IMG/VR virus record: IMGVR_UViG_2718218100_000015
Strand: one strand, 5' to 3'
Length of the DNA stretch: 25,384 bases
DNA from: a virus
Lineage: Duplodnaviria; Heunggongvirae; Uroviricota; Caudoviricetes
In this document: positions 5,468 to 12,840 of the stretch, piece after piece
How the letters are laid out: each line of letters starts with the position of its first letter
Numbering within the stretch: the stretch's first letter is position 1
The notes under the pieces: model-generated
The model's database searches: none
What the model saw: only the letters and a program-made list of their open reading frames with translations
What the model was told of the DNA's origin: nothing
Made by a program: the position numbers and the translations under genes

Positions 5468-6302
5468 TTATCTACCCTCTTTAATTTCCACAACAGTCCG
5501 GATGAATTTATCCGGGTTCAGGTAGTTCCTTATTATGTGTATATAAACCACCTGCGCACGCATTTTTTATTTAGCGTCACATATTGATTTTATGGAATTT
5601 AAAGCCCGATTAAACCATATAAAATGACATAATAAATACCATGCCTGCGGACTATAAATACAGGAGCATTAATAGGAACTACCATTCACCCAGGGTTTAC
5701 TATCCTATGGGTCATTGCACCTGATAGTGCTAACCCCACCGCCAATACAGCAAGGCAGTACAACTTCTACACGAGGCCTTGCATTGCAGGCCCCAATTTC
5801 CGGGCATATTTTTGAATCGCATCCAACTTATAAACATTGGGCCTGCATAAAAACCTTGATATTAAATAACATCACCTTAAATCGTAAAATATATCCGAAT
5901 GAATCCATAAAGAACCGGACAGATCTAGTTTTATAAAAATCAGTATGAAATGCAACACCATGGCCAGAGGCGAAAATGTTATTCCCCGGCAAAAACATGC
6001 AGTCTATTTATGTGCCTGTTGAATACTCCTGAATAAGGGTGAATAGTGGTGAGGAGCAAAAAACAAATAGCTACGAGGAATAAAAAAACCACCCATTATG
6101 AAAAAATACCATAAATAATTTTATTCCCATGTGAACAGTTATGAACAGTCGATGAATACTGCCATGCCAACCCTTCACCTTATAACCTTCTGTATTACCT
6201 ATTTTTTTTACCTAAGTGAATAGTTAAGGTAAGTCTGAAACAGCCTTAGTTAAACGAGGCCTTTTCTGGCTAGCCAAAAGAGGTCCGGGGCGGTTCAGTC
6301 TT

Positions 6303-6320
6303 TGTCTTGTCGCTCGCACA
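6303..6320 (+). promoter_or_regulatory. TGT-N12-ACA dyad, candidate Ogr/Delta-dependent late promoter element upstream of sid
   Basis: tgt cttgtcgctcgc aca at 6303-6320, centred about 80 nt upstream of the sid ATG at 6391; P2/P4 late promoters carry this dyad near -55. Confidence 0.45.
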
Positions 6321-6390
6321 ATGGCGTTCAATGGCAGCTTTGTATGCATCACAGCACAATTGACACCACGACAAACCACTAGGTGCTGAC

Positions 6391-7143
6391 ATGACAATCC
6401 CAGAACAGAACAATAACCCGATCGTTGAAATTTCTATCCCTGTTTCGACGCAACAGGCGCTTGAGAAAGTGAATGCCACCAAATCTGCATGGCTTGAAGC
6501 ACGTCGTCAGCAAAAAGCGGCAGCGGATAATATTGCGACAATCCGCCAGCGCCGCGCTGAAATGGAAGCCACGACGAACGCCCTGAATGAGGAGTGGCGC
6601 ACGCTATTTCGTGAAAGTCAGGGCGTAGTCTCAAAGGAAATGAAAAAACTGCGCACGGAAATTGCGCTGGGACGAGAAACGCTTGAGGATTTTGATGAGC
6701 TGCTGGCGGCTCAGGAAAGCGAAAATGCACTTTTGCCGCAGGAGGCTGCGGAATTAGCCGGAAAGTATATCCACGCGCACGACACCCTTGTGGGTATTCG
6801 CGCAAAACAAATCTGGGAAGATTTTATGCAGTCGCATGGAAAAGCACTAATCCAGACACTAAGCCTGCTCAAATCAACAATGGGCAGGGAAGCCAGCGCA
6901 GTTGTCGGTGTGGTGCATTCAGTTAATGACCCGGACACACTGCTGAAAGATTTTATTCATAAACATATCACCAGACCGGCTCTGACTAACGATGCGATGC
7001 CCGAACAGGACCCCGTGTTTAAACTGGCGGGAGTTGCCCCGGATTATGCGGCCCGTCTGGATTTCAGTAATAAACTCTCTCCAGCAGCTATGCATAAAAT
7101 GAAGGTTCGTCAGGAACGTGCTGAGAAGGAGAAAGCAGTATGA
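6391..7143 (+). CDS. sid: Sid-like capsid size determination (external scaffold) protein (250 aa)
   Basis: Charged/helical 250-aa protein first in an operon followed by Psu-like and Ogr/Delta genes; size and context match P4 Sid. Assignment is by context, not motif. Confidence 0.55.
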   Translation: MTIPEQNNNPIVEISIPVSTQQALEKVNATKSAWLEARRQQKAAADNIATIRQRRAEMEATTNALNEEWRTLFRESQGVVSKEMKKLRTEIALGRETLEDFDELLAAQESENALLPQEAAELAGKYIHAHDTLVGIRAKQIWEDFMQSHGKALIQTLSLLKSTMGREASAVVGVVHSVNDPDTLLKDFIHKHITRPALTNDAMPEQDPVFKLAGVAPDYAARLDFSNKLSPAAMHKMKVRQERAEKEKAV

Positions 7144-7691
7144 TGGCCCGAGTCACTCCAGACCAAGCGCTTATCAGTTTTAGAAATGCCCGTATTCTGT
7201 GGGCTGGACATAGTGAGAGCCGAAAAGCCGTTGAACAACAGATAGAATCACTCCTCACTGCCATGGAAAAACCAGCAGATTATGCTCGACAGCTCGAATT
7301 ACAGCGGGAACATCTGGATGTGCTGAAATGGCAAATTAACTGTGCTGCGCGCGAATGCATTTACTCGCAGCATCAACTGATGGAGGCCTGCACAGAAGAC
7401 GCTCTCAGCAATTTTATGCAGGCGAATGGAGCAGCCCTGACATCTGCACTGGCTCCGTTCCTGAAGGGGCGCGGAGGGGTTGACGTTGCGTCCCGTATAT
7501 TACGCAATGCTCTGGTTCGCCAGCTGGCAATAACACCGCCTGAAATTGCCGGGGATTATCGTATGATTCTGGATGAATCCGGTGTGATGCCTGACCCCAT
7601 GATGGTTCGTGATTGCCAGAGCTCTTACACCCCTGCACAACAACTGCGCTTTCAGCAACGTCTGGATTACATTAACGGCATGCAGGAGTAA
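7140..7691 (+). CDS. psu: Psu-like polarity suppression / capsid decoration protein (183 aa)
   Basis: ATGA overlap with sid; recalled similarity to P4 Psu (KWQINCAAREC, QANGAALTSALAP, YTPAQQ) and size close to 190 aa. Confidence 0.65.
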   Translation: MMARVTPDQALISFRNARILWAGHSESRKAVEQQIESLLTAMEKPADYARQLELQREHLDVLKWQINCAARECIYSQHQLMEACTEDALSNFMQANGAALTSALAPFLKGRGGVDVASRILRNALVRQLAITPPEIAGDYRMILDESGVMPDPMMVRDCQSSYTPAQQLRFQQRLDYINGMQE

Positions 7692-7696
7692 TATTA

Positions 7697-7969
7697 ATGG
7701 CACTTAAATGTCCCGAATGCGGTACGACGGCACACGCCAGAACCTCCGCCTATGAAGCACCATCGGTTAAACGCTCATGGTATCAGTGCCAGAATCTTGA
7801 ATGTTCCTACACATTTACCGCACTGGAAAGTGTGGATACGATAATCATGAAGCCCCGGCGCAATGAACAGGAATCAGAGAAAGCACAAATGCCGGAAAAA
7901 CAACAGCAAACTCTCAATCGCTATGGCTCCGCGTCAAAGCTGTCAAGCCGTCAGCAAATTCCTGTCTGA
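7697..7969 (+). CDS. Ogr/Delta-family zinc-finger late transcription activator (90 aa)
   Basis: CPECGTTAHARTS...YQCQNLECSYTF is the Ogr/Delta C4 zinc-finger signature; GGAG RBS at 7685-7688. Confidence 0.85.
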   Translation: MALKCPECGTTAHARTSAYEAPSVKRSWYQCQNLECSYTFTALESVDTIIMKPRRNEQESEKAQMPEKQQQTLNRYGSASKLSSRQQIPV

Positions 7970-7990
7970 TTAGCAAAAAAAGCCCACGTA

Positions 7991-8017
7991 ATCCCGGTCC
8001 AGTACTGGGATTTTTTA
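7991..8017 (+). terminator. intrinsic terminator after the late operon
   Basis: Hairpin atcccggt-ccagt-actgggat (8-bp stem with one GU pair) followed by TTTTTT at 8011-8016, 22 nt after the delta stop. Confidence 0.55.
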
Positions 8018-8378
8018 CGCCTTTTCCCTGGCTGGCCTGAGAGCGCATGAGTGCATGTCTATAGCGCATGAAAACGCATGATTCTCATGCACCATTTTTG
8101 ACGCGAAAGCCCTTGTGTGGTGGCTTCTGAGACGATTTGCGGAATGCATGAAAACCAGTCTGTTAAGCGAAGCGAGCAGGCGTGGGGGGCTGCGCGCGCT
8201 AAGGGGTTAGATTATAAAATATCAAACGCCGGTGAGATCCATTATTGTGGAACCACCCGAAGGAAGTGTAGAGGCGAAAGTACCCAAAATAATTTTGCAA
8301 ATTATTTAGAAATGAACTGAGCGCTCGAAACGAAATATAATTTCGAGCACCCCAATTAGCAGTTATATTTTTAATGTA

Positions 8379-8945
8379 TTAAACAGGATAAAAACCAGAG
8401 CTTCCATTCTTATTTAAGTTATGGATTTTATTTGCATCATTAATTTTTATTTGGAACGTCGGACCTTTATTCTCAAGAATTACAATCTGGAAATTATAGT
8501 CCCTTTTGATTAATGCGTGATAAAATGAATCACTGAGACTGACGCTATTAACATCCGATAGAGAACCCCCTCTATCTTTATCAAAGTGCGTCACTAATGG
8601 ACTATCAAGCACAACAAATCCAATGAATGGATTCCCTTTTCTTGATAAAAATTCCGCAAAGCAAATGGTAAATATAGCATGCATTACTGCACGGGTACCT
8701 TTACCAAACATTCCTCGGCGTTTCCCATTGATATTAAAGTCATATGTATCTTCGTCAAATCGCACTTTGTTATCTTTAGAATTTTCAAAATTTATATCAT
8801 TCAAAAAGTCTTGCATCGCTATTTCTATATCATACAAATCAGCTACTGTTAAGGAGTCAAAGTCCTCGGCGGAGTATTTAAGTTCGTCAACATCATCTTC
8901 TTTATCTTGTAATGAAGATAGAATGCTATGTTTTGTGTGATCCAT
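8379..8945 (-). CDS. C-terminal ATPase part of a split SMC/ABC-type ATPase (signature-like FGKGTR, Walker-B-like FVVLDSP), 188 aa
   Basis: ATG at 8943-8945 overlaps the upstream stop (TAATG); FGKGTRAVMHAIF...FIGFVVLDSPLVTHFD resembles ABC signature plus Walker B/D-loop; last gene of the AT-rich cargo operon. Confidence 0.5.
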   Translation of the reverse strand: MDHTKHSILSSLQDKEDDVDELKYSAEDFDSLTVADLYDIEIAMQDFLNDINFENSKDNKVRFDEDTYDFNINGKRRGMFGKGTRAVMHAIFTICFAEFLSRKGNPFIGFVVLDSPLVTHFDKDRGGSLSDVNSVSLSDSFYHALIKRDYNFQIVILENKGPTFQIKINDANKIHNLNKNGSSGFYPV

Positions 8946-9535
8946 TAAAAGATTGTCTTTATATTCATAAAGTGATTCAAGAGATGAATGTATTGTTTTA
9001 TATTTTTATCTTCTAACGTCTTAAAATCACTTTTTTCTGATTGATAAATTTCATTAACATCATTTTTTCTTAACATAATTAATTCATGTTCGCGAACATT
9101 AGATCCGATTGATTCAATTAATCCTTTCAGCTGGCTTTTGATTTTCAATTTTTCTGCATTACACGACAAAAAACAATCATCATATGATATTTCATTTTCT
9201 TTTTTTTGCGGTGTATTACAGAACTCACAATAAATATCTGCAAAATTATTTAAATAGAAATTCGCCTGTGATACAACATCTATTCTTTGTAGATCTATAA
9301 AGTATTGGTCTTTAAGAAGACTAAATCTTTCAATGAGTAATGATAAGTATTTTTCCCTGTCACTGATTGAATATAATTCATCACTTAACTCTTTTAATAA
9401 TTGCTTCTTATCATCAAGTGCATCAACAATACCTTTCAATATATCTTTCGATGATTCAATATCTTGCTCTACTTTCTCAAGTTCTCTTGAAACAATGACT
9501 TGATCATATTCAGGATAAATTAATTGCGCTTTCAA
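8945..9535 (-). CDS. coiled-coil middle segment of the same ATPase (196 aa); no ATG, follows an in-frame TAA
   Basis: In the same frame as ORF 9566-10225, separated only by TAA at 9566-9568 and 10 sense codons; heptad-like charged sequence with CEFC...CFLSC Cys pairs. The ORF-track 'start' is TTG. Confidence 0.45.
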   Translation of the reverse strand: MKAQLIYPEYDQVIVSRELEKVEQDIESSKDILKGIVDALDDKKQLLKELSDELYSISDREKYLSLLIERFSLLKDQYFIDLQRIDVVSQANFYLNNFADIYCEFCNTPQKKENEISYDDCFLSCNAEKLKIKSQLKGLIESIGSNVREHELIMLRKNDVNEIYQSEKSDFKTLEDKNIKQYIHLLNHFMNIKTIF

Positions 9536-9565
9536 TTCCTCATAAATATTTGCAATTTGATTTTT

Positions 9566-10198
9566 TTAAAAATATCTTGCTTTTTTATTTGGTTTTTCTG
9601 CTAAGGAGTTAGTATCATCTCTCTGAGTTAAAAGGAATTTAAATTCAGACTTTCTTTTTGTCTCCTCGCTAGGAATATCAGAAAGAATTAACGACTTCTC
9701 AGTTAACACTCTTAATTCATCAATATAAAAAAATTCAAAAACATTATTAAGATTAAATTTATGAAGAGTATTACTTAAGTTTGTTCTTACTTTAGCCTCT
9801 TTGAAATTCAACCTACCATAAAAGTATGATGAAAAACTCTTTTTAGACGAAGCACTTTTGGAAAAAACCATCAACAGATTAGCTTCACTAACATTTTCAA
9901 TGCTCGAATCATATAATCTGTAATGGGCGCTATCCTGAAGAGACCTCTCAATTGTCATTACCCTACCTTGAAAATTAAATTCCAGATAGGCTAAATCATA
10001 ACCTTGAGCATGATCGATATCTTTATTTTTTAGTTTTTCACTCCCTAATAAATATCGAATCAAATAATATATGTATGTTTTTCCAGAGTCAGAACCACCA
10101 TATAAAATAGTCAATTTAGAACCAAATTCAATTATAGCATCTAATTTATTGAATCCGGTTACCTTTATTTTTCTGAACGTAAAAAAATTGTCATTCAT
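9566..10198 (-). CDS. N-terminal Walker-A part of SMC/ABC-type ATPase (LmuB-like), terminated by in-frame TAA
   Basis: ATG at 10196-10198 (MNDNFFTFRKIKVTGF...), Walker A ILYGGSDSGKTY at residues 32-41; ends at TAA 9566-9568 with the reading frame continuing downstream. Confidence 0.55.
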   Translation of the reverse strand: MNDNFFTFRKIKVTGFNKLDAIIEFGSKLTILYGGSDSGKTYIYYLIRYLLGSEKLKNKDIDHAQGYDLAYLEFNFQGRVMTIERSLQDSAHYRLYDSSIENVSEANLLMVFSKSASSKKSFSSYFYGRLNFKEAKVRTNLSNTLHKFNLNNVFEFFYIDELRVLTEKSLILSDIPSEETKRKSEFKFLLTQRDDTNSLAEKPNKKARYF

Positions 10199-10649
10199 AA
10201 TTAAATTCCATATCATATTTGCCAATTTTATTTTTTATAATTGATTGCAACTGCTCATCAGGAATATCACTATATAACTTAACCACCAAATTTATATTAT
10301 GCTCCATCTGCGCAACATATTCATTATGTAGAGAATTTGTAAATGCATATGTTTTTTCAGAAGCTTTATATACAAAACCACGATGTGTATAAATTTTTGA
10401 GGCTAGTTCATAGCCTTGCAACAAAGCCAATGATTCTAAAACAATCTCTCGTTTTAGGGCTAACTGAGCATCTCTACGGGGTATTGGAGGATGAAGACTA
10501 ATCTCTTCAGGTAAAAAATCCTTAAGATTTACTAAAATAAAATCAAAACAAATAAGCCGTTCAAGGCTTAATGAAGAAGGATAAATAGCGACGAGCACTT
10601 TCGCCATTCGACATGCCACTTCTAAACTTGAATTATAAATTCTAACCAT
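10191..10649 (-). CDS. small hypothetical protein (152 aa) of the cargo operon (LmuC-like position)
   Basis: ATG at 10647-10649 overlaps the stop of the upstream ORF (TAATG); stop overlaps the start of the ATPase gene; no recognisable motif. Confidence 0.45.
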   Translation of the reverse strand: MVRIYNSSLEVACRMAKVLVAIYPSSLSLERLICFDFILVNLKDFLPEEISLHPPIPRRDAQLALKREIVLESLALLQGYELASKIYTHRGFVYKASEKTYAFTNSLHNEYVAQMEHNINLVVKLYSDIPDEQLQSIIKNKIGKYDMEFNYE

Positions 10650-11266
10650 TATCTCACCGTCCAAATTACTTCACCATCATTAACCAAATGATGGCATATT
10701 CCTTTTTTATCATTTGCTTCACATATTTTTGATAGTACTGAATGTGCAATTGGTGTCAGAACAGCCTGCTTCAAGACTGCATTACACCTAATAAATGCAT
10801 AATTATGGTCTTCATAAAAGACGGGTTCAATTGAAGATGAAATGTAACATTTCAATGCTTTGAATACATCATCTTTAAATACTTCGCGGACAAAAACCTC
10901 AAGCGAAGATGCAAAATAAAAATCATTTCTACTATTATTAAAGTGTCGTCTGTATGGATCATCAAGCTCTAAGAAAGAACTATAAGTTTTATTTCCATGC
11001 TCTGAATAGGCTTGAAGCAGTGCATTAACATATACAGACTCTTTTTTTGAATTGTATGTTGGAATTTCATTTGGAGGGATTCTCACGACATACAGCTCGT
11101 TAAAGTACTTAAAATAAAGGTGTGTATTTGCAATATCATTTAAAATCAATGATAAGGGTAGAGAGTAAAAAATACTAAAATCAAAATCCTCAATATATTT
11201 TTTTATTTCATCATCTAATGGAATATCAATCTTTTTAGTTATTTTTTTGAAATTGCTGAATCCCAT
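10649..11266 (-). CDS. C-terminal portion (205 aa) of putative effector; probably the same gene as 11239-11655 after a frameshift
   Basis: Overlaps the upstream ORF by 28 nt around an A7 run (T7 at 11242-11248 on the plus strand); the two frames differ by 1. Confidence 0.45.
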   Translation of the reverse strand: MGFSNFKKITKKIDIPLDDEIKKYIEDFDFSIFYSLPLSLILNDIANTHLYFKYFNELYVVRIPPNEIPTYNSKKESVYVNALLQAYSEHGNKTYSSFLELDDPYRRHFNNSRNDFYFASSLEVFVREVFKDDVFKALKCYISSSIEPVFYEDHNYAFIRCNAVLKQAVLTPIAHSVLSKICEANDKKGICHHLVNDGEVIWTVR

Positions 11267-11655
11267 GAATCAAGGACTGCTTTTTTAAGCTCGTTTTTAT
11301 TTTTCAATAAATTAGAAAATGTAGTAGATAAATCATAGGGTGCCACAAAAAAGTACTTCTGAGGGATGGGATAATCACCATTCAGAGTAAAATAGATAAG
11401 TTTTCCAAACTCAACTACAACATCAGAGAACCCTAAACTTTTTTTGTACAGTTTGCATTGATAATTATCCCAAGAATAACCTTCTACGTTAGGATCCGAT
11501 TTATATCCAACAACGTCTCTACCTTTATCTCCAGCTCCTCCCAAACGTTCGCTCCACGGGTAATCATCTGATTTACAGACAATAAGCCAATCATGGACAA
11601 ATACCTCCCATTGTTCATCATCCCATGTCAATATTTCCGAAAGTGGTTGAGACAC
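11239..11655 (-). CDS. N-terminal portion (138 aa) of putative effector with Mrr/Cap4-like PD-(D/E)xK nuclease signature
   Basis: GGAGDKGRDVVGY...NYQCKLYKK fits the D-x-G-x-D ... Q-x-K pattern of Mrr-type restriction-endonuclease folds; first gene after the integrase in the cargo slot. Confidence 0.5.
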   Translation of the reverse strand: MSQPLSEILTWDDEQWEVFVHDWLIVCKSDDYPWSERLGGAGDKGRDVVGYKSDPNVEGYSWDNYQCKLYKKSLGFSDVVVEFGKLIYFTLNGDYPIPQKYFFVAPYDLSTTFSNLLKNKNELKKAVLDSWDSAISKK

Positions 11656-11658
11656 AAA

Positions 11659-12840
11659 TTAACTCCTTTTTAGTCTTTCAAATATCAAATTACTGTACCA
11701 GTCCATCATAGACTTCCTTCCACTAAAATATTGAGCATGGTTATAAGTCCCCCTAATAGAATTTTTATCTACATGAGCCAACTGGATTTCAATCCAAGCA
11801 CTCTCAAAACCTTGCTCATGCAGGATTGTAGAAAGGGTATGACGAAAACCATGTCCAGTGACTTTTCCTCCATACCCAATACGCTTAATGGCTTGATTTA
11901 TACTCGCTTCGCTCATTGGCCTATTCGGATCGTTCCGCCCTGGAAAAACATAACGATAGTTCCCTGTCATGATCTTGAGTTCATTGAGTAAATCTACCGC
12001 TTGAGATGATAAGGGCACAAGATGTGGCCTACGCATTTTCATCCTTTCAGCAGGAATTTCCCAAATAGCGTTATCCAGATCAAATTCTTGCCATAATGCC
12101 GCGCGTAATTCGATGGTTCTCACACCCGTAATCATCAGTAATTTCGTGGCTATCTGGACAAGCTTACTCCCGGAGTAACCCTCTAAGGCACGTAGAAAAT
12201 CAGGTATCTCATCAGCTTTTAGGAATGGGAAATGATTGGATTGGTGTACTTCGAGAGCGCTGGAGAGCTCAGCCGCAGGATTGTACTCCGCCCTACCCGT
12301 TGCAATTGCGTAGCGAAACACTTCGGAGCAACGCTGCCGCACTTTGCGCATTTTCTCCAACGCACCACGTTTCTCAATTTTACGCAGAACGTTCAGCAGC
12401 TCTAGCGGTTTAATCTCTCCCACAGGCCTTGTTCCGACATAAGGAAAAATGTCGTTCTTAAACGCTTCCATGATGTCTGATGCATATCCCGCCGACCATT
12501 TAGCAGATTTAAGTTGATGCCACTCTCTGGCTATCTTTTCGAAGGCGTTCTCTGACTCTGTTTGCATAGCTAGCTTTTGCTCTTTTCGAACCTCACTAGG
12601 GTTCTTTCCTTCTGCCACAAGTTTTCGAGCTTCATCACGACGGGAACGAGCATCGGCAAGGGTGATCGTTGGGTAAACACCAAGCGAGATCATTTTGGGT
12701 TTGCCGGCATAGCGATAGCGGAACCGCCAACTCTTGCTTCCATTAGGTTCTATAAGTAATGACAACCCTAGCCCATCTCCAAATGTATAGGCTTTAGCTT
12801 CAGGCTTAGCGCGGCGAATCTGCATATCGTTTAAAGGCAT
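11659..12840 (-). CDS. int: P4-type tyrosine integrase (393 aa)
   Basis: ATG at 12838-12840 (MPLNDMQIRRAKPEAKAYTFGDG...); catalytic region HGFRHTLSTILHEQG ... IRGTYNH; lies 160 bp downstream of a tRNA-Thr 3' fragment in the same orientation. Confidence 0.9.
   Translation of the reverse strand: MPLNDMQIRRAKPEAKAYTFGDGLGLSLLIEPNGSKSWRFRYRYAGKPKMISLGVYPTITLADARSRRDEARKLVAEGKNPSEVRKEQKLAMQTESENAFEKIAREWHQLKSAKWSAGYASDIMEAFKNDIFPYVGTRPVGEIKPLELLNVLRKIEKRGALEKMRKVRQRCSEVFRYAIATGRAEYNPAAELSSALEVHQSNHFPFLKADEIPDFLRALEGYSGSKLVQIATKLLMITGVRTIELRAALWQEFDLDNAIWEIPAERMKMRRPHLVPLSSQAVDLLNELKIMTGNYRYVFPGRNDPNRPMSEASINQAIKRIGYGGKVTGHGFRHTLSTILHEQGFESAWIEIQLAHVDKNSIRGTYNHAQYFSGRKSMMDWYSNLIFERLKRS

What the first reader, a model, noticed from the sequence alone, without database searches (positions are those of the whole stretch)
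9536..9568. In-frame TAA separates the Walker-A part from the rest of the SMC-like ATPase
ORF 9566-10225 and ORF 8945-9535 are in the same frame; only TAA at 9566-9568 plus ten sense codons (KNQIANIYEE) separate them, and the downstream ORF has no ATG (the track's 'M' is TTG). A single indel cannot explain this because the frame is preserved. The options are a nonsense mutation (inactivated ATPase), a substitution error, or a natural split into a Walker-A protein and a coiled-coil protein.
Basis: seen in the sequence. Interest (0 to 1): 0.55.

Follow-up and report, generated by a model that had tools for sequence, protein, structure and literature searches.

The report
Nonsense mutation in decayed Lamassu gene
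The in-frame TAA is a real Leu-to-stop point mutation, specific to classic E. coli O157:H7, in the SMC-like ATPase gene (lmuB) of a Lamassu anti-phage system that two older 1-base deletions had already broken, so it is an ordinary pseudogene lesion and not a natural two-protein design.

Summary
On the minus strand, TAA at 9568-9566 separates two same-frame ORFs of one SMC/Rad50-like ATPase gene. The window is the Sp2/CP-933I P4-like satellite prophage of E. coli O157:H7. The gene is lmuB of a three-gene type II ("short") Lamassu / ABC-3C defence operon, lmuA-lmuC-lmuB.

Intact copies exist in Salmonella (98.75% nt identity), Klebsiella aerogenes (97%), Proteus and a Pantoea-type element. They encode 335, 152 and 606 aa proteins, with TTA or CTG (Leu211) where the window has TAA. 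All 80 distant relatives examined also carry a single open frame.

The window has three lesions: a C deletion in lmuA (site 11249), T>A at 9567 (L211*), and an A deletion in lmuB (A-run 9003-9007). O55:H7, LSU-61 and SF O157:H- 493/89 share both deletions but keep TTA. 295 complete E. coli records carry TAA and 10 carry TTA. The stop is therefore a late hit on the non-sorbitol-fermenting O157:H7 branch, in a gene that was already dead. Other lineages carry their own extra lesions.

RefSeq Sakai already flags ECs_0293 as a pseudogene. One point is worth noting: the published "abundant Lamassu-var" is this decayed locus.

The parts
9566..9568 (-). In-frame ochre codon TAA, codon 211 of lmuB. The derived base is 9567 (T>A on the coding strand). 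The ancestral codon is TTA (Leu).
   Evidence: TTA in Salmonella, K. aerogenes, P. mirabilis, O55:H7, LSU61 and 493/89; CTG in the Pantoea-type copy. TAA allele in 295 records, TTA allele in 10.
9569..10198 (-). lmuB fragment 1 (aa 1-210): the N-terminal half of the ABC/SMC head, with Walker A G34-T41. ATG at 10198 overlaps the lmuC stop (ATGAATGA).
   Evidence: In the AF2 model of the 87%-identical intact protein, the head-N ends at about residue 199, a linker spans 200-204, and the coiled coil starts at 205.
9008..9565 (-). lmuB codons 212-397 (ascending coiled coil, CxxC tip at C324/C327, descending coiled coil), still in the original frame but cut off from any start.
9003..9007 (-). A5 run, A6 in all intact copies: a 1-nt deletion that frameshifts lmuB at codon 398. 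The old frame then runs into TAA at 8945-8947.
   Evidence: Shared by O55:H7, LSU61 and 493/89.
8379..9002 (-). lmuB C-terminal part in the shifted frame (end of the coiled coil plus head-C with Walker B F528-VVLD-S533). The annotated 188-aa ORF 8945-8379 starts at an internal Met.
   Evidence: (DUF3732 match).
10191..10649 (-). lmuC (152 aa, ABC-3C middle component 2), intact.
   Evidence: Pfam PF20288 at 6e-30; PADLOC LmuC at 2.5e-36; RefSeq name.
10649..11655 (-). lmuA effector gene (335 aa when intact), split here into ORF 11655-11239 (N-terminal putative nuclease domain) and ORF 11266-10649 (CTD6) by deletion of one C at the site of 11249 (TTTCC>TTTC before the A7 run 11248-11242).
11659..12840 (-). 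P4-type tyrosine integrase (intS) bounding the defence hotspot.
6391..7969 (+). Satellite core genes bounding the hotspot on the other side: sid-like 6391-7143, psu 7140-7691, ogr/delta 7697-7969.
8319..8352 (-). Terminator-like hairpin (13 pairs, T-rich tail) just after the lmuB stop.
   Evidence: This is a consensus scan only.

Best explanation
The TAA is a single T>A transversion (window base 9567) that changed Leu211 (TTA) of lmuB to an ochre stop. lmuB is the SMC/Rad50-like ATPase sensor of a type II (short) Lamassu / ABC-3C anti-phage operon, lmuA-lmuC-lmuB. The operon sits in the defence hotspot between int and ogr/psu/sid of the P4-like satellite prophage Sp2/CP-933I of E. coli O157:H7.

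Shown: intact relatives encode one 606-aa LmuB. The O157:H7 operon carries three lesions: a C deletion in lmuA, L211* and an A deletion in lmuB. The two deletions predate the stop. The stop is confined to the non-sorbitol-fermenting O157:H7 branch. Other lineages have accumulated their own extra lesions in lmuB.

Inferred: translation ends after a 210-aa head-N fragment that has Walker A but lacks the coiled coil, zinc hook, Walker B and the rest of the head. This fragment cannot form an ATPase or sequester LmuA. The effector is also cut between its nuclease domain and its LmuB/LmuC-binding C-terminal domain. The system is therefore non-functional, and the TAA is neutral decay of a pseudogene.
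For: (1) Identity of the locus: 100% match to O157:H7 Sakai/EDL933, inside the feature 'prophage Sp2, P4-like phage'. ECs_0293 is annotated there as a pseudogene (AAA family ATPase) spanning all three fragments.

(2) Family: on the repaired proteins PADLOC gives LmuB 4.2e-117 (model 3-608 of 610), LmuA 8e-89 and LmuC 2.5e-36. Pfam gives MC2 and CTD6. The AF2 model of the 87%-identical intact homologue hits solved LmuB chains first (9uxh_F, 9hqu_A, 9hqx_B, 9nyg_B; E about 1e-14), then Rad50.

(3) Intact state: 26 full-length protein clusters of 594-612 aa. Open 335/152/606-aa frames in Salmonella (98.75% nt), K. aerogenes (97.07%), P. mirabilis (89.3%) and a Pantoea-type element (78.7%), in the same int...ogr-psu-sid context for all but the P. 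mirabilis copy, which lies in a different integrative element. 80 of 80 distant loci have one open 598-637-aa frame.

(4) Codon 211 is TTA or CTG in all close relatives.

(5) Order of events: O55:H7 TB182A and CB9615, LSU61 and 493/89 share both deletions but have TTA. In 493/89 the N-terminal ORF is 417 aa, which equals 210+1+206.

(6) Population: the TAA allele is exact in 295 records. The TTA allele is exact in 10: eight O55:H7-type records, 493/89 and LSU61.

(7) Decay signature: independent extra lesions in lmuB, namely an A deletion at 9036 in the O55 clade, +T at 9734 and Q214* in CB9615, and +A at 9037 in LSU61. The 13 polarised lmuB substitutions are 9 missense, 2 nonsense and 2 synonymous, against a random expectation of 75/6/19%. 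Intact copies show dN/dS of 0.09-0.25.

(8) There is no usable start or RBS for the downstream pieces.
Against: The Domainator paper (PMC11754643) cloned this very hotspot from O55:H7 TB182A (CP038295 4,116,517-4,120,474). That copy has TTA but carries the lmuA deletion and two lmuB deletions. The authors reported smaller plaques of T-even phages, so some residual or fragment-borne activity of the pre-TAA allele cannot be excluded. PGAP in most O157 genomes annotates the pieces as ordinary CDSs rather than pseudogenes. Within the clone, lmuA and lmuC are much less polymorphic than lmuB (1/1007 and 1/450 against 17/1820 segregating sites). Uniform neutral decay of the whole operon does not predict this. 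No expression or protein data were examined.
Confidence: 0.93

Rival explanations
1. Natural split: the system is designed as a separate Walker-A head protein plus a coiled-coil protein, as in two-chain SMC-like ATPases.
For: The frame is preserved across the stop and a TTG follows ten codons later. PGAP annotates the pieces as separate CDSs in most O157 genomes.
Against: No homologue is split here. There are 26 full-length clusters, five close intact loci and 80 of 80 distant loci with a single frame. The sense allele TTA survives in the sister lineages of the same clone. There is no ATG and no correctly spaced SD before the TTG. The downstream piece is itself frameshifted 186 codons later.
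Confidence: 0.01
2. Sequencing or assembly substitution error in an AT-rich homopolymer context (T5A7).
For: The site lies inside TTTTTAAAAAAA, a context where errors are common.
Against: The change is a substitution, not a length change. An identical TAA allele is found in 295 complete genomes from many laboratories and platforms, while the TTA allele is restricted to O55:H7, LSU61 and 493/89.
Confidence: 0.01
3. The fragmented operon ('Lamassu-var') keeps a weak or altered function. Possible routes are non-covalent assembly of fragments, occasional slippage in the A-runs, or a function of LmuC and the LmuA-CTD alone. On this view the TAA modifies rather than merely decorates a dead gene.
For: Plaque-size reduction of T2, T4, T6 and RB69 with the TB182A hotspot clone (PMC11754643). 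lmuA and lmuC are nearly invariant within the clone while lmuB is not (Fisher p = 0.006 for lmuB against lmuA). Both frameshifts sit at A-runs.
Against: The phenotype was weak, seen only at the most dilute titres, and had no mutant controls. The clone also carried ogr/delta. In O157:H7, full-length LmuB would need ochre read-through plus a frameshift. LmuA is severed exactly between its nuclease domain and the C-terminal domain, which published structures show is the part sequestered by LmuB/LmuC and needed for tetramerisation. Different lineages carry different, non-equivalent truncations.
Confidence: 0.05
4. Adaptive truncation: after the A deletion at codon 398, the leftover 417-aa LmuB fragment was costly, so earlier stops (L211*, Q214*, upstream frameshifts) were positively selected in parallel.
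For: Four lineages each have an additional disruptive hit in lmuB, two of them nonsense codons three codons apart. Density of segregating sites is 4.9 times higher in lmuB than in the flanks (p = 1e-4).
Against: The lmuB density does not differ from the adjacent intergenic region (p = 0.55). The mutational spectrum fits random expectation. Homopolymer indels are common in 30% GC DNA. 493/89 keeps the 417-aa ORF without further hits.
Confidence: 0.08

Closest known systems
Type II ('short') Lamassu / ABC-3C / DdmABC (LmuA-LmuC-LmuB), e.g. the solved Salmonella enterica LmuACB (PDB 9hqu/9hqx) and the Vibrio cholerae system (9uxh, 9nyg)
   Same: Three overlapping genes in the order lmuA-lmuC-lmuB. 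LmuB of about 600 aa with Walker A Gx4GKT, Walker B hhhhDS, an antiparallel coiled coil and a single CxxC. LmuC belongs to the MC2 family. LmuA has an N-terminal effector domain plus an ABC-3C C-terminal domain (CTD6). PADLOC and Foldseek both place it here.
   Different: Only 14-15% sequence identity to the solved LmuB chains, which are 630-660 aa. The effector N-domain has no Pfam match. In this window the operon is not intact: lmuA is frameshifted, and lmuB has a nonsense codon plus a frameshift.
'Lamassu-var', cluster 1 of the Psu/integrase-flanked hotspots in E. coli (Domainator paper, PMC11754643)
   Same: It is this locus. The published cluster has 259 hotspots of '3 to 9 CDSs' with Psu only 31% identical to P4 Psu. 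The cloned representative, CP038295 4,116,517-4,120,474, is the O55:H7 TB182A copy that I aligned as L008.
   Different: The paper treats it as an abundant new variant with in vivo activity. My alignments show a canonical three-gene system that is frameshifted in every E. coli copy examined. Its abundance reflects the heavily sequenced O157:H7/O55:H7 clone: all 309 hits are at least 99% identical. The window's allele carries the extra L211* that the cloned allele lacks.
Rad50/SbcC zinc-hook SMC-like ATPases
   Same: Split ABC head joined by an antiparallel coiled coil with a CxxC at the tip. These are the next-best structural hits after LmuB. Lamassu is proposed to derive from SbcCD.
   Different: A much shorter coiled coil. 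It is partnered with LmuC and LmuA instead of Mre11/SbcD, and it sits in a defence-island context.
Defence pseudogenes in P4/P2 hotspots (PMC13586616)
   Same: A recognisable defence system in the main P4-type hotspot between integrase and psu.
   Different: That survey reports that fewer than 1% of P4 pseudogenes resemble defence genes, and argues that systems are swapped before they decay. Here a decayed system has persisted, and kept accumulating lesions, through the whole O55:H7 to O157:H7 radiation.

Membership tests
Lamassu type II / short Lamassu (ABC-3C) | LmuB: SMC/Rad50-like ATPase with Walker A Gx4GK[S/T] | tested here: met
   G34-G-S-D-S-G-K40-T41 in fragment 1. G34, S36, G39 and K40 are invariant in the alignments.
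Lamassu type II / short Lamassu (ABC-3C) | LmuB Walker B of the short-Lamassu type, hhhhD[Q/S/T/E] | tested here: met
   F528-V-V-L-D532-S533 in fragment 3. D532, S533 and P534 are invariant.
Lamassu type II / short Lamassu (ABC-3C) | Antiparallel coiled coil with a CxxC zinc-hook motif (present in many short LmuB clades) | tested here: met
   C324-E-F-C327, with C/C conserved in 80 of 80 relatives. In the AF2 model, helices 233-317 and 339-439 flank the tip.
Lamassu type II / short Lamassu (ABC-3C) | Whole-protein similarity to curated LmuB models and to solved LmuB structures | tested here: met
   PADLOC LmuB PDLC03863 at 4.2e-117 over residues 6-605 of the repaired protein. A profile hit to 9hqu_A at 8e-10. 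Foldseek top hits are LmuB chains at about 1e-14 for the model of intact homologue P0001.
Lamassu type II / short Lamassu (ABC-3C) | LmuC / middle component encoded between lmuA and lmuB | tested here: met
   Pfam MC2 PF20288 at 6e-30; PADLOC LmuC at 2.5e-36. Gene at 10649-10191, overlapping both neighbours.
Lamassu type II / short Lamassu (ABC-3C) | LmuA: effector N-domain fused to an ABC-3C C-terminal domain in one polypeptide | tested here: not met
   CTD6 PF20282 at 7.7e-30, and PADLOC LmuA at 8e-89 on the repaired 335-aa protein. In the window, however, the gene is cut into 138-aa and 205-aa ORFs by a 1-nt deletion at site 11249. It is met in the Salmonella, Klebsiella, Proteus and Pantoea-type copies.
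Lamassu type II / short Lamassu (ABC-3C) | Nuclease (Mrr/Cap4-type PD-(D/E)xK) nature of the LmuA N-domain | not tested
   No Pfam or PDB sequence match. The G-D-K-G-R-D...Y-Q-C-K pattern resembles Mrr-type motifs, but this rests on my own reading only.
Lamassu type II / short Lamassu (ABC-3C) | Uninterrupted lmuB open reading frame (a functional member) | tested here: not met
   TAA at codon 211 and a 1-nt deletion at codon 398. The locus descends from a member but is a pseudogene.
Lamassu type II / short Lamassu (ABC-3C) | Anti-phage or anti-plasmid activity dependent on the ATPase and the effector | not testable with these tools
   The only published datum is a weak plaque-size effect of the TB182A allele, without mutant controls.
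P4-like satellite defence hotspot | Variable cargo between a P4-type integrase and psu/sid/ogr(delta), with alpA and a primase further on | tested here: met
   Sakai annotation 'prophage Sp2, P4-like phage' with intS, ogr/delta, psu, sid and a primase. The same architecture is seen around the intact copies in the Pantoea-type and K. aerogenes loci.

The most novel reading that the evidence does not exclude
The decay may not be uniform. Within the O55:H7/O157:H7 clone, lmuB has collected 17 segregating sites, including five independent disruptive hits: L211*, Q214* and three homopolymer indels. The equally 'dead' lmuA and the intact lmuC have one each. Two readings remain open. One is parallel selection to shorten a harmful truncated SMC-like protein. 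The other is retention of LmuC and the LmuA fragments for a new role, which might also explain the weak phenotype published for 'Lamassu-var'.
Probability: 0.1. Interest if true: 0.5.

Novelty: already known. Interest (0 to 1): 0.25.

Why it matters
As a biological object it is ordinary: a lineage-specific nonsense SNP in a defence gene that was already a pseudogene. RefSeq already flags it as such in strain Sakai.

It has three modest uses:
- **Clonal marker.** Base 9567 (TTA against TAA) cleanly separates the non-sorbitol-fermenting O157:H7 branch from O55:H7, LSU-61 and SF O157:H-.
- **Correction to the literature.** The "most frequent", "new" Lamassu variant of E. coli hotspots is a frameshifted canonical type II Lamassu, over-counted because O157:H7 is over-sequenced. 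Intact versions suitable for experiments exist in Salmonella and Klebsiella aerogenes.
- **Counter-example.** It is a documented case against the claim that defence systems in P4-type hotspots are swapped before they decay.

Tried and rejected
- NCBIfam gave no hit for any of the six ORFs, although RefSeq names two of them 'ABC-three component system...'. Pfam and PADLOC were informative instead.
- A 91-nt megablast query centred on the stop found nothing because of low-complexity masking. An off-centre 96-nt query solved this.
- phmmer of the repaired LmuB and LmuA against PDB sequences found nothing. Only the profile search and the fold search reached the LmuB structures.
- A literature search by locus tags (ECs0293-0295, Z0327/8) returned only irrelevant papers. 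Two searches failed on term syntax.
- ARAGORN found no tRNA in the window, so the attachment-site tRNA could not be placed.
- The promoter scan was at chance level: 21 sites found against 18.9 expected.
- Programmed read-through or frameshifting was considered and rejected. The stop is absent from the sister lineages, the two frameshifts are plain 1-nt losses relative to 97-99%-identical intact copies, and different strains carry different, incompatible sets of lesions.
- The 188-aa 'complete' protein recorded in Salmonella first suggested a conserved split. The Salmonella DNA, however, has the full 606-codon frame open, so that record is an annotation artefact.

Full report
**1. Observation**

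All coordinates below are read on the minus strand. The ORF at 10225-9566 ends in TAA (9568-9566), in the context TAT TTT TAA AAA AAT. Ten sense codons (KNQIANIYEE, 9565-9536) follow. The next listed ORF (9535-8945) begins at a TTG in the same frame. The upstream piece carries a Walker A motif and matches AAA_23/AAA_15/SMC_N. The finding is therefore correct as described.

Two additions:
- The real start is ATG at 10198, overlapping the stop of the preceding gene. The truncated product is therefore 210 aa.
- A third ORF (8945-8379, in a different frame, with a TAATG overlap) is also part of the same gene.

**2. What the locus is**

The 3.4 kb around the finding is 100% identical to E. coli O157:H7 Sakai and EDL933. 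It lies inside the feature 'prophage Sp2, P4-like phage', between the integrase intS and ogr/delta-psu-sid. RefSeq Sakai annotates ECs_0293 as one pseudogene ('AAA family ATPase') covering all three pieces. PGAP in other strains lists three CDSs.

The neighbouring genes are an ABC-3C middle component 2 (Pfam PF20288, 6e-30) and an ABC-3C CTD6 protein (PF20282, 7.7e-30). ABC-3C is the older name for type II Lamassu, also called DdmABC.

When the lesions are repaired in silico, the PADLOC models match end to end:

| Protein | PADLOC E-value |
|---|---|
| LmuB | 4.2e-117 (residues 6-605) |
| LmuA | 8e-89 |
| LmuC | 2.5e-36 |

The protein has the short-Lamassu hallmarks described by Haudiquet et al.:
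- Walker A: G34-GSDSGK-T41.
- Walker B: FVVLD532-S533, which fits hhhhD[Q/S/T/E].
- A single CxxC at C324/C327.

An AlphaFold2 model of the 87%-identical intact homologue P0001 has mean pLDDT 85.9. Its layout is:

| Element | Residues |
|---|---|
| N-terminal head half | 1 to about 199 |
| Short low-confidence linker | 200-204 |
| Helices | 205-224 and 233-317 |
| CxxC tip | between the helices, about 318-338 |
| Return helix | 339-439 |
| C-terminal head half | 452-606 |

Foldseek against the PDB returns solved LmuB chains first (9uxh_F, 9hqu_A, 9hqx_B, 9nyg_B; E about 1e-14), then Rad50 and SMC proteins. A sequence profile also reaches 9hqu_A at 8e-10.

**3. What the intact gene looks like**

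A protein search with the conceptually joined sequence found 26 full-length clusters of 594-612 aa. They include a 606-aa Proteus mirabilis protein (87% identity) and a 606-aa Pantoea alhagi protein (75%). In the alignment, the stop corresponds to Leu in the motif F-L-K, next to the invariant K212.

At the DNA level, all the close copies have open frames of 335, 152 and 606 codons:

| Copy | nt identity to the window operon | Codon 211 |
|---|---|---|
| Salmonella enterica | 98.75% | TTA |
| Klebsiella aerogenes | 97.07% | TTA |
| P. mirabilis | 89.3% | TTA |
| Pantoea-type element | 78.7% | CTG |

The Salmonella, Klebsiella and Pantoea-type copies sit in the same context of proBA-int-lmuACB-ogr-psu-sid. 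In a scan of one genome per species, all 80 retained relatives (24-47% identity, bacteria and archaea) have a single open frame of 598-637 codons with the CxxC conserved. No homologue is split at or near this position.

**4. The lesions and their order**

Relative to the intact copies, the window has exactly three lesions:
- Loss of one C at the site of 11249 (TTTCC>TTTC, before an A7 run). This cuts lmuA between its N-terminal effector domain and CTD6.
- T>A at 9567 (TTA>TAA, L211*).
- Loss of one A in the run 9003-9007 (A6>A5). This frameshifts lmuB at codon 398.

O55:H7 strains TB182A and CB9615, the deer isolate LSU61 and the sorbitol-fermenting O157:H- strain 493/89 all share both deletions but have TTA at codon 211. 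In 493/89 the N-terminal ORF is 417 aa, exactly 210+1+206.

Among complete E. coli genomes, 308 records match the 96-nt probe around the stop; the wider 3.4-kb query matched 309:
- 295 carry the TAA allele exactly.
- 10 carry the TTA allele exactly: eight O55:H7-type records, 493/89 and LSU61.
- 3 have further differences; for example, CB9615 has TTA plus other changes.

In the accepted stepwise model, O55:H7 gives rise to an intermediate represented by LSU-61. That intermediate then branches into SF O157:H- and NSF O157:H7 (PMC3309690). The stop therefore arose on the NSF O157:H7 branch, in an operon that had been broken twice before. This also rules out a sequencing error.

**5. Signature of decay**

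Other lineages carry their own additional disruptive mutations in lmuB:
- An A deletion at 9036 in the O55 clade.
- +T at 9734 and an independent nonsense Q214* (9559 C>T) in CB9615.
- +A at 9037 in LSU61, which runs into a stop before the older deletion.

Of 13 polarised lmuB substitutions within the clone, 9 are missense, 2 nonsense and 2 synonymous. This is close to the random expectation for this 30% GC gene, which is 75%, 6% and 19%. Between intact copies, dN/dS is 0.09-0.25 for all three genes. The full-length genes are under purifying selection elsewhere, while lmuB evolves neutrally in this clone.

**6. Mechanism**

Shown: the sequence changes listed above, their phylogenetic order, and family membership.

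Inferred from published Lamassu structures: in a working system, two LmuB protomers and LmuC sequester the C-terminal domain of a monomeric LmuA. Sensing of DNA ends releases LmuA, which then tetramerises into an active nuclease.

In O157:H7, translation of lmuB stops after a 210-aa Walker-A-only half-head. This fragment lacks the coiled coil, hook, Walker B and the rest of the head. There is no usable restart: the TTG has GAGGA only 1-2 nt upstream and there is no in-frame ATG, and the next piece is frameshifted. LmuA is severed between its effector and sequestration domains. The system cannot sense, sequester or activate, so the TAA is functionally silent.

**7. Relation to the literature**

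The Domainator paper (PMC11754643) reported this hotspot as cluster 1: 259 of 910 E. coli hotspots, '3 to 9 CDSs', 'related to Lamassu'. It named the locus Lamassu-var and cloned CP038295 4,116,517-4,120,474, which is the TB182A copy I aligned as L008. The authors saw only reduced plaque size for T-even phages. The paper does not mention frameshifts in the sections I read.

My comparison indicates that the 'variant' is a frameshifted canonical system. The variable CDS count reflects different lesions in different strains. The abundance reflects clonal over-sampling, since all 309 hits are at least 99% identical. That weak phenotype is the main evidence against complete loss of function of the pre-TAA allele, so I keep a small probability for residual function.

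A 2026 survey states that defence pseudogenes are rare in P4 hotspots and that systems are swapped before decaying (PMC13586616). This locus is a long-lived exception.

**8. Unexplained**

Within the five compared strains, lmuB holds 17 of 25 segregating sites in 6 kb (binomial p = 1e-4). lmuA has 1 in 1007 nt (Fisher p = 0.006 against lmuB). The intergenic spacer does not differ from lmuB (p = 0.55). This may be chance in a small sample, residual constraint on lmuA and lmuC, or selection for earlier truncation of lmuB. I did not resolve it.

**9. Verdict**

This is a known kind of object, already flagged as a pseudogene in RefSeq Sakai. Interest is low, with a useful side-result about the published 'Lamassu-var'.

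Noticed in passing
window 10649-11655 (minus strand); lesion at the site of 11249: The Lamassu effector gene lmuA is also broken. One C is lost (TTTCC>TTTC, before the A7 run 11248-11242), giving overlapping ORFs 11655-11239 (N-terminal domain) and 11266-10649 (CTD6). Intact relatives encode one 335-aa protein.
   Followed up: yes
window 9003-9007 and 8945-8947 (minus strand): A second lesion in lmuB. A6>A5 frameshifts at codon 398. The old frame ends at TAA 8947-8945, and the 188-aa ORF 8945-8379 starts at an internal Met through a chance TAATG overlap.
   Followed up: yes
L008 (NZ_CP038295.1, O55:H7 TB182A) compared with window 8379-11655: The hotspot cloned and named 'Lamassu-var' in PMC11754643 is this locus. 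The cloned allele carries the lmuA deletion and two 1-nt deletions in lmuB (9036 and the 9003-9007 run). The published 'abundant variant' therefore looks like a decayed canonical type II Lamassu.
   Followed up: partly
L009 (O55:H7 CB9615), aligned to window 9559 and 9734: An independent nonsense codon Q214* (CAA>TAA), only three codons downstream of the O157:H7 L211*, plus a +T in a T-run. LSU61 (L011) has +A at 9037, and the O55 clade has an A deletion at 9036.
   Followed up: yes
window 6541-12553 compared with L008-L011: Segregating sites among five clone members: lmuB 17/1820, lmuA 1/1007, lmuC 1/450, int 3/895, the spacer 2/409, and ogr+psu+sid 1/1429. The excess in lmuB relative to the equally frameshifted lmuA is unexplained.
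   Followed up: partly
L092-L094 (Salmonella enterica draft genomes), gene at 6001-6567: In these Salmonella loci, only the 188-aa C-terminal piece and lmuC are on record as called genes, although the DNA has the full 335- and 606-codon frames open. This suggests that the O157 pseudogene fragments are seeding mis-annotation of intact genes elsewhere.
   Followed up: partly
whole window (1-25384): ARAGORN finds no tRNA gene anywhere in the window, although it spans two tandem prophage elements (Sp1 and Sp2 by the Sakai annotation) with a P4-type integrase.
   Followed up: no
window 8319-8352 (minus strand): A strong terminator-like hairpin (13 pairs, 6 GC, T-rich tail) 27 nt after the lmuB stop. 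It is probably the operon terminator.
   Followed up: no
P0027: A 344-aa protein from a Logan assembly, 96% identical over the first third of LmuB and carrying an MC2 domain. It appears to be a fused lmuC plus lmuB N-terminal gene call, perhaps another frameshift variant.
   Followed up: no
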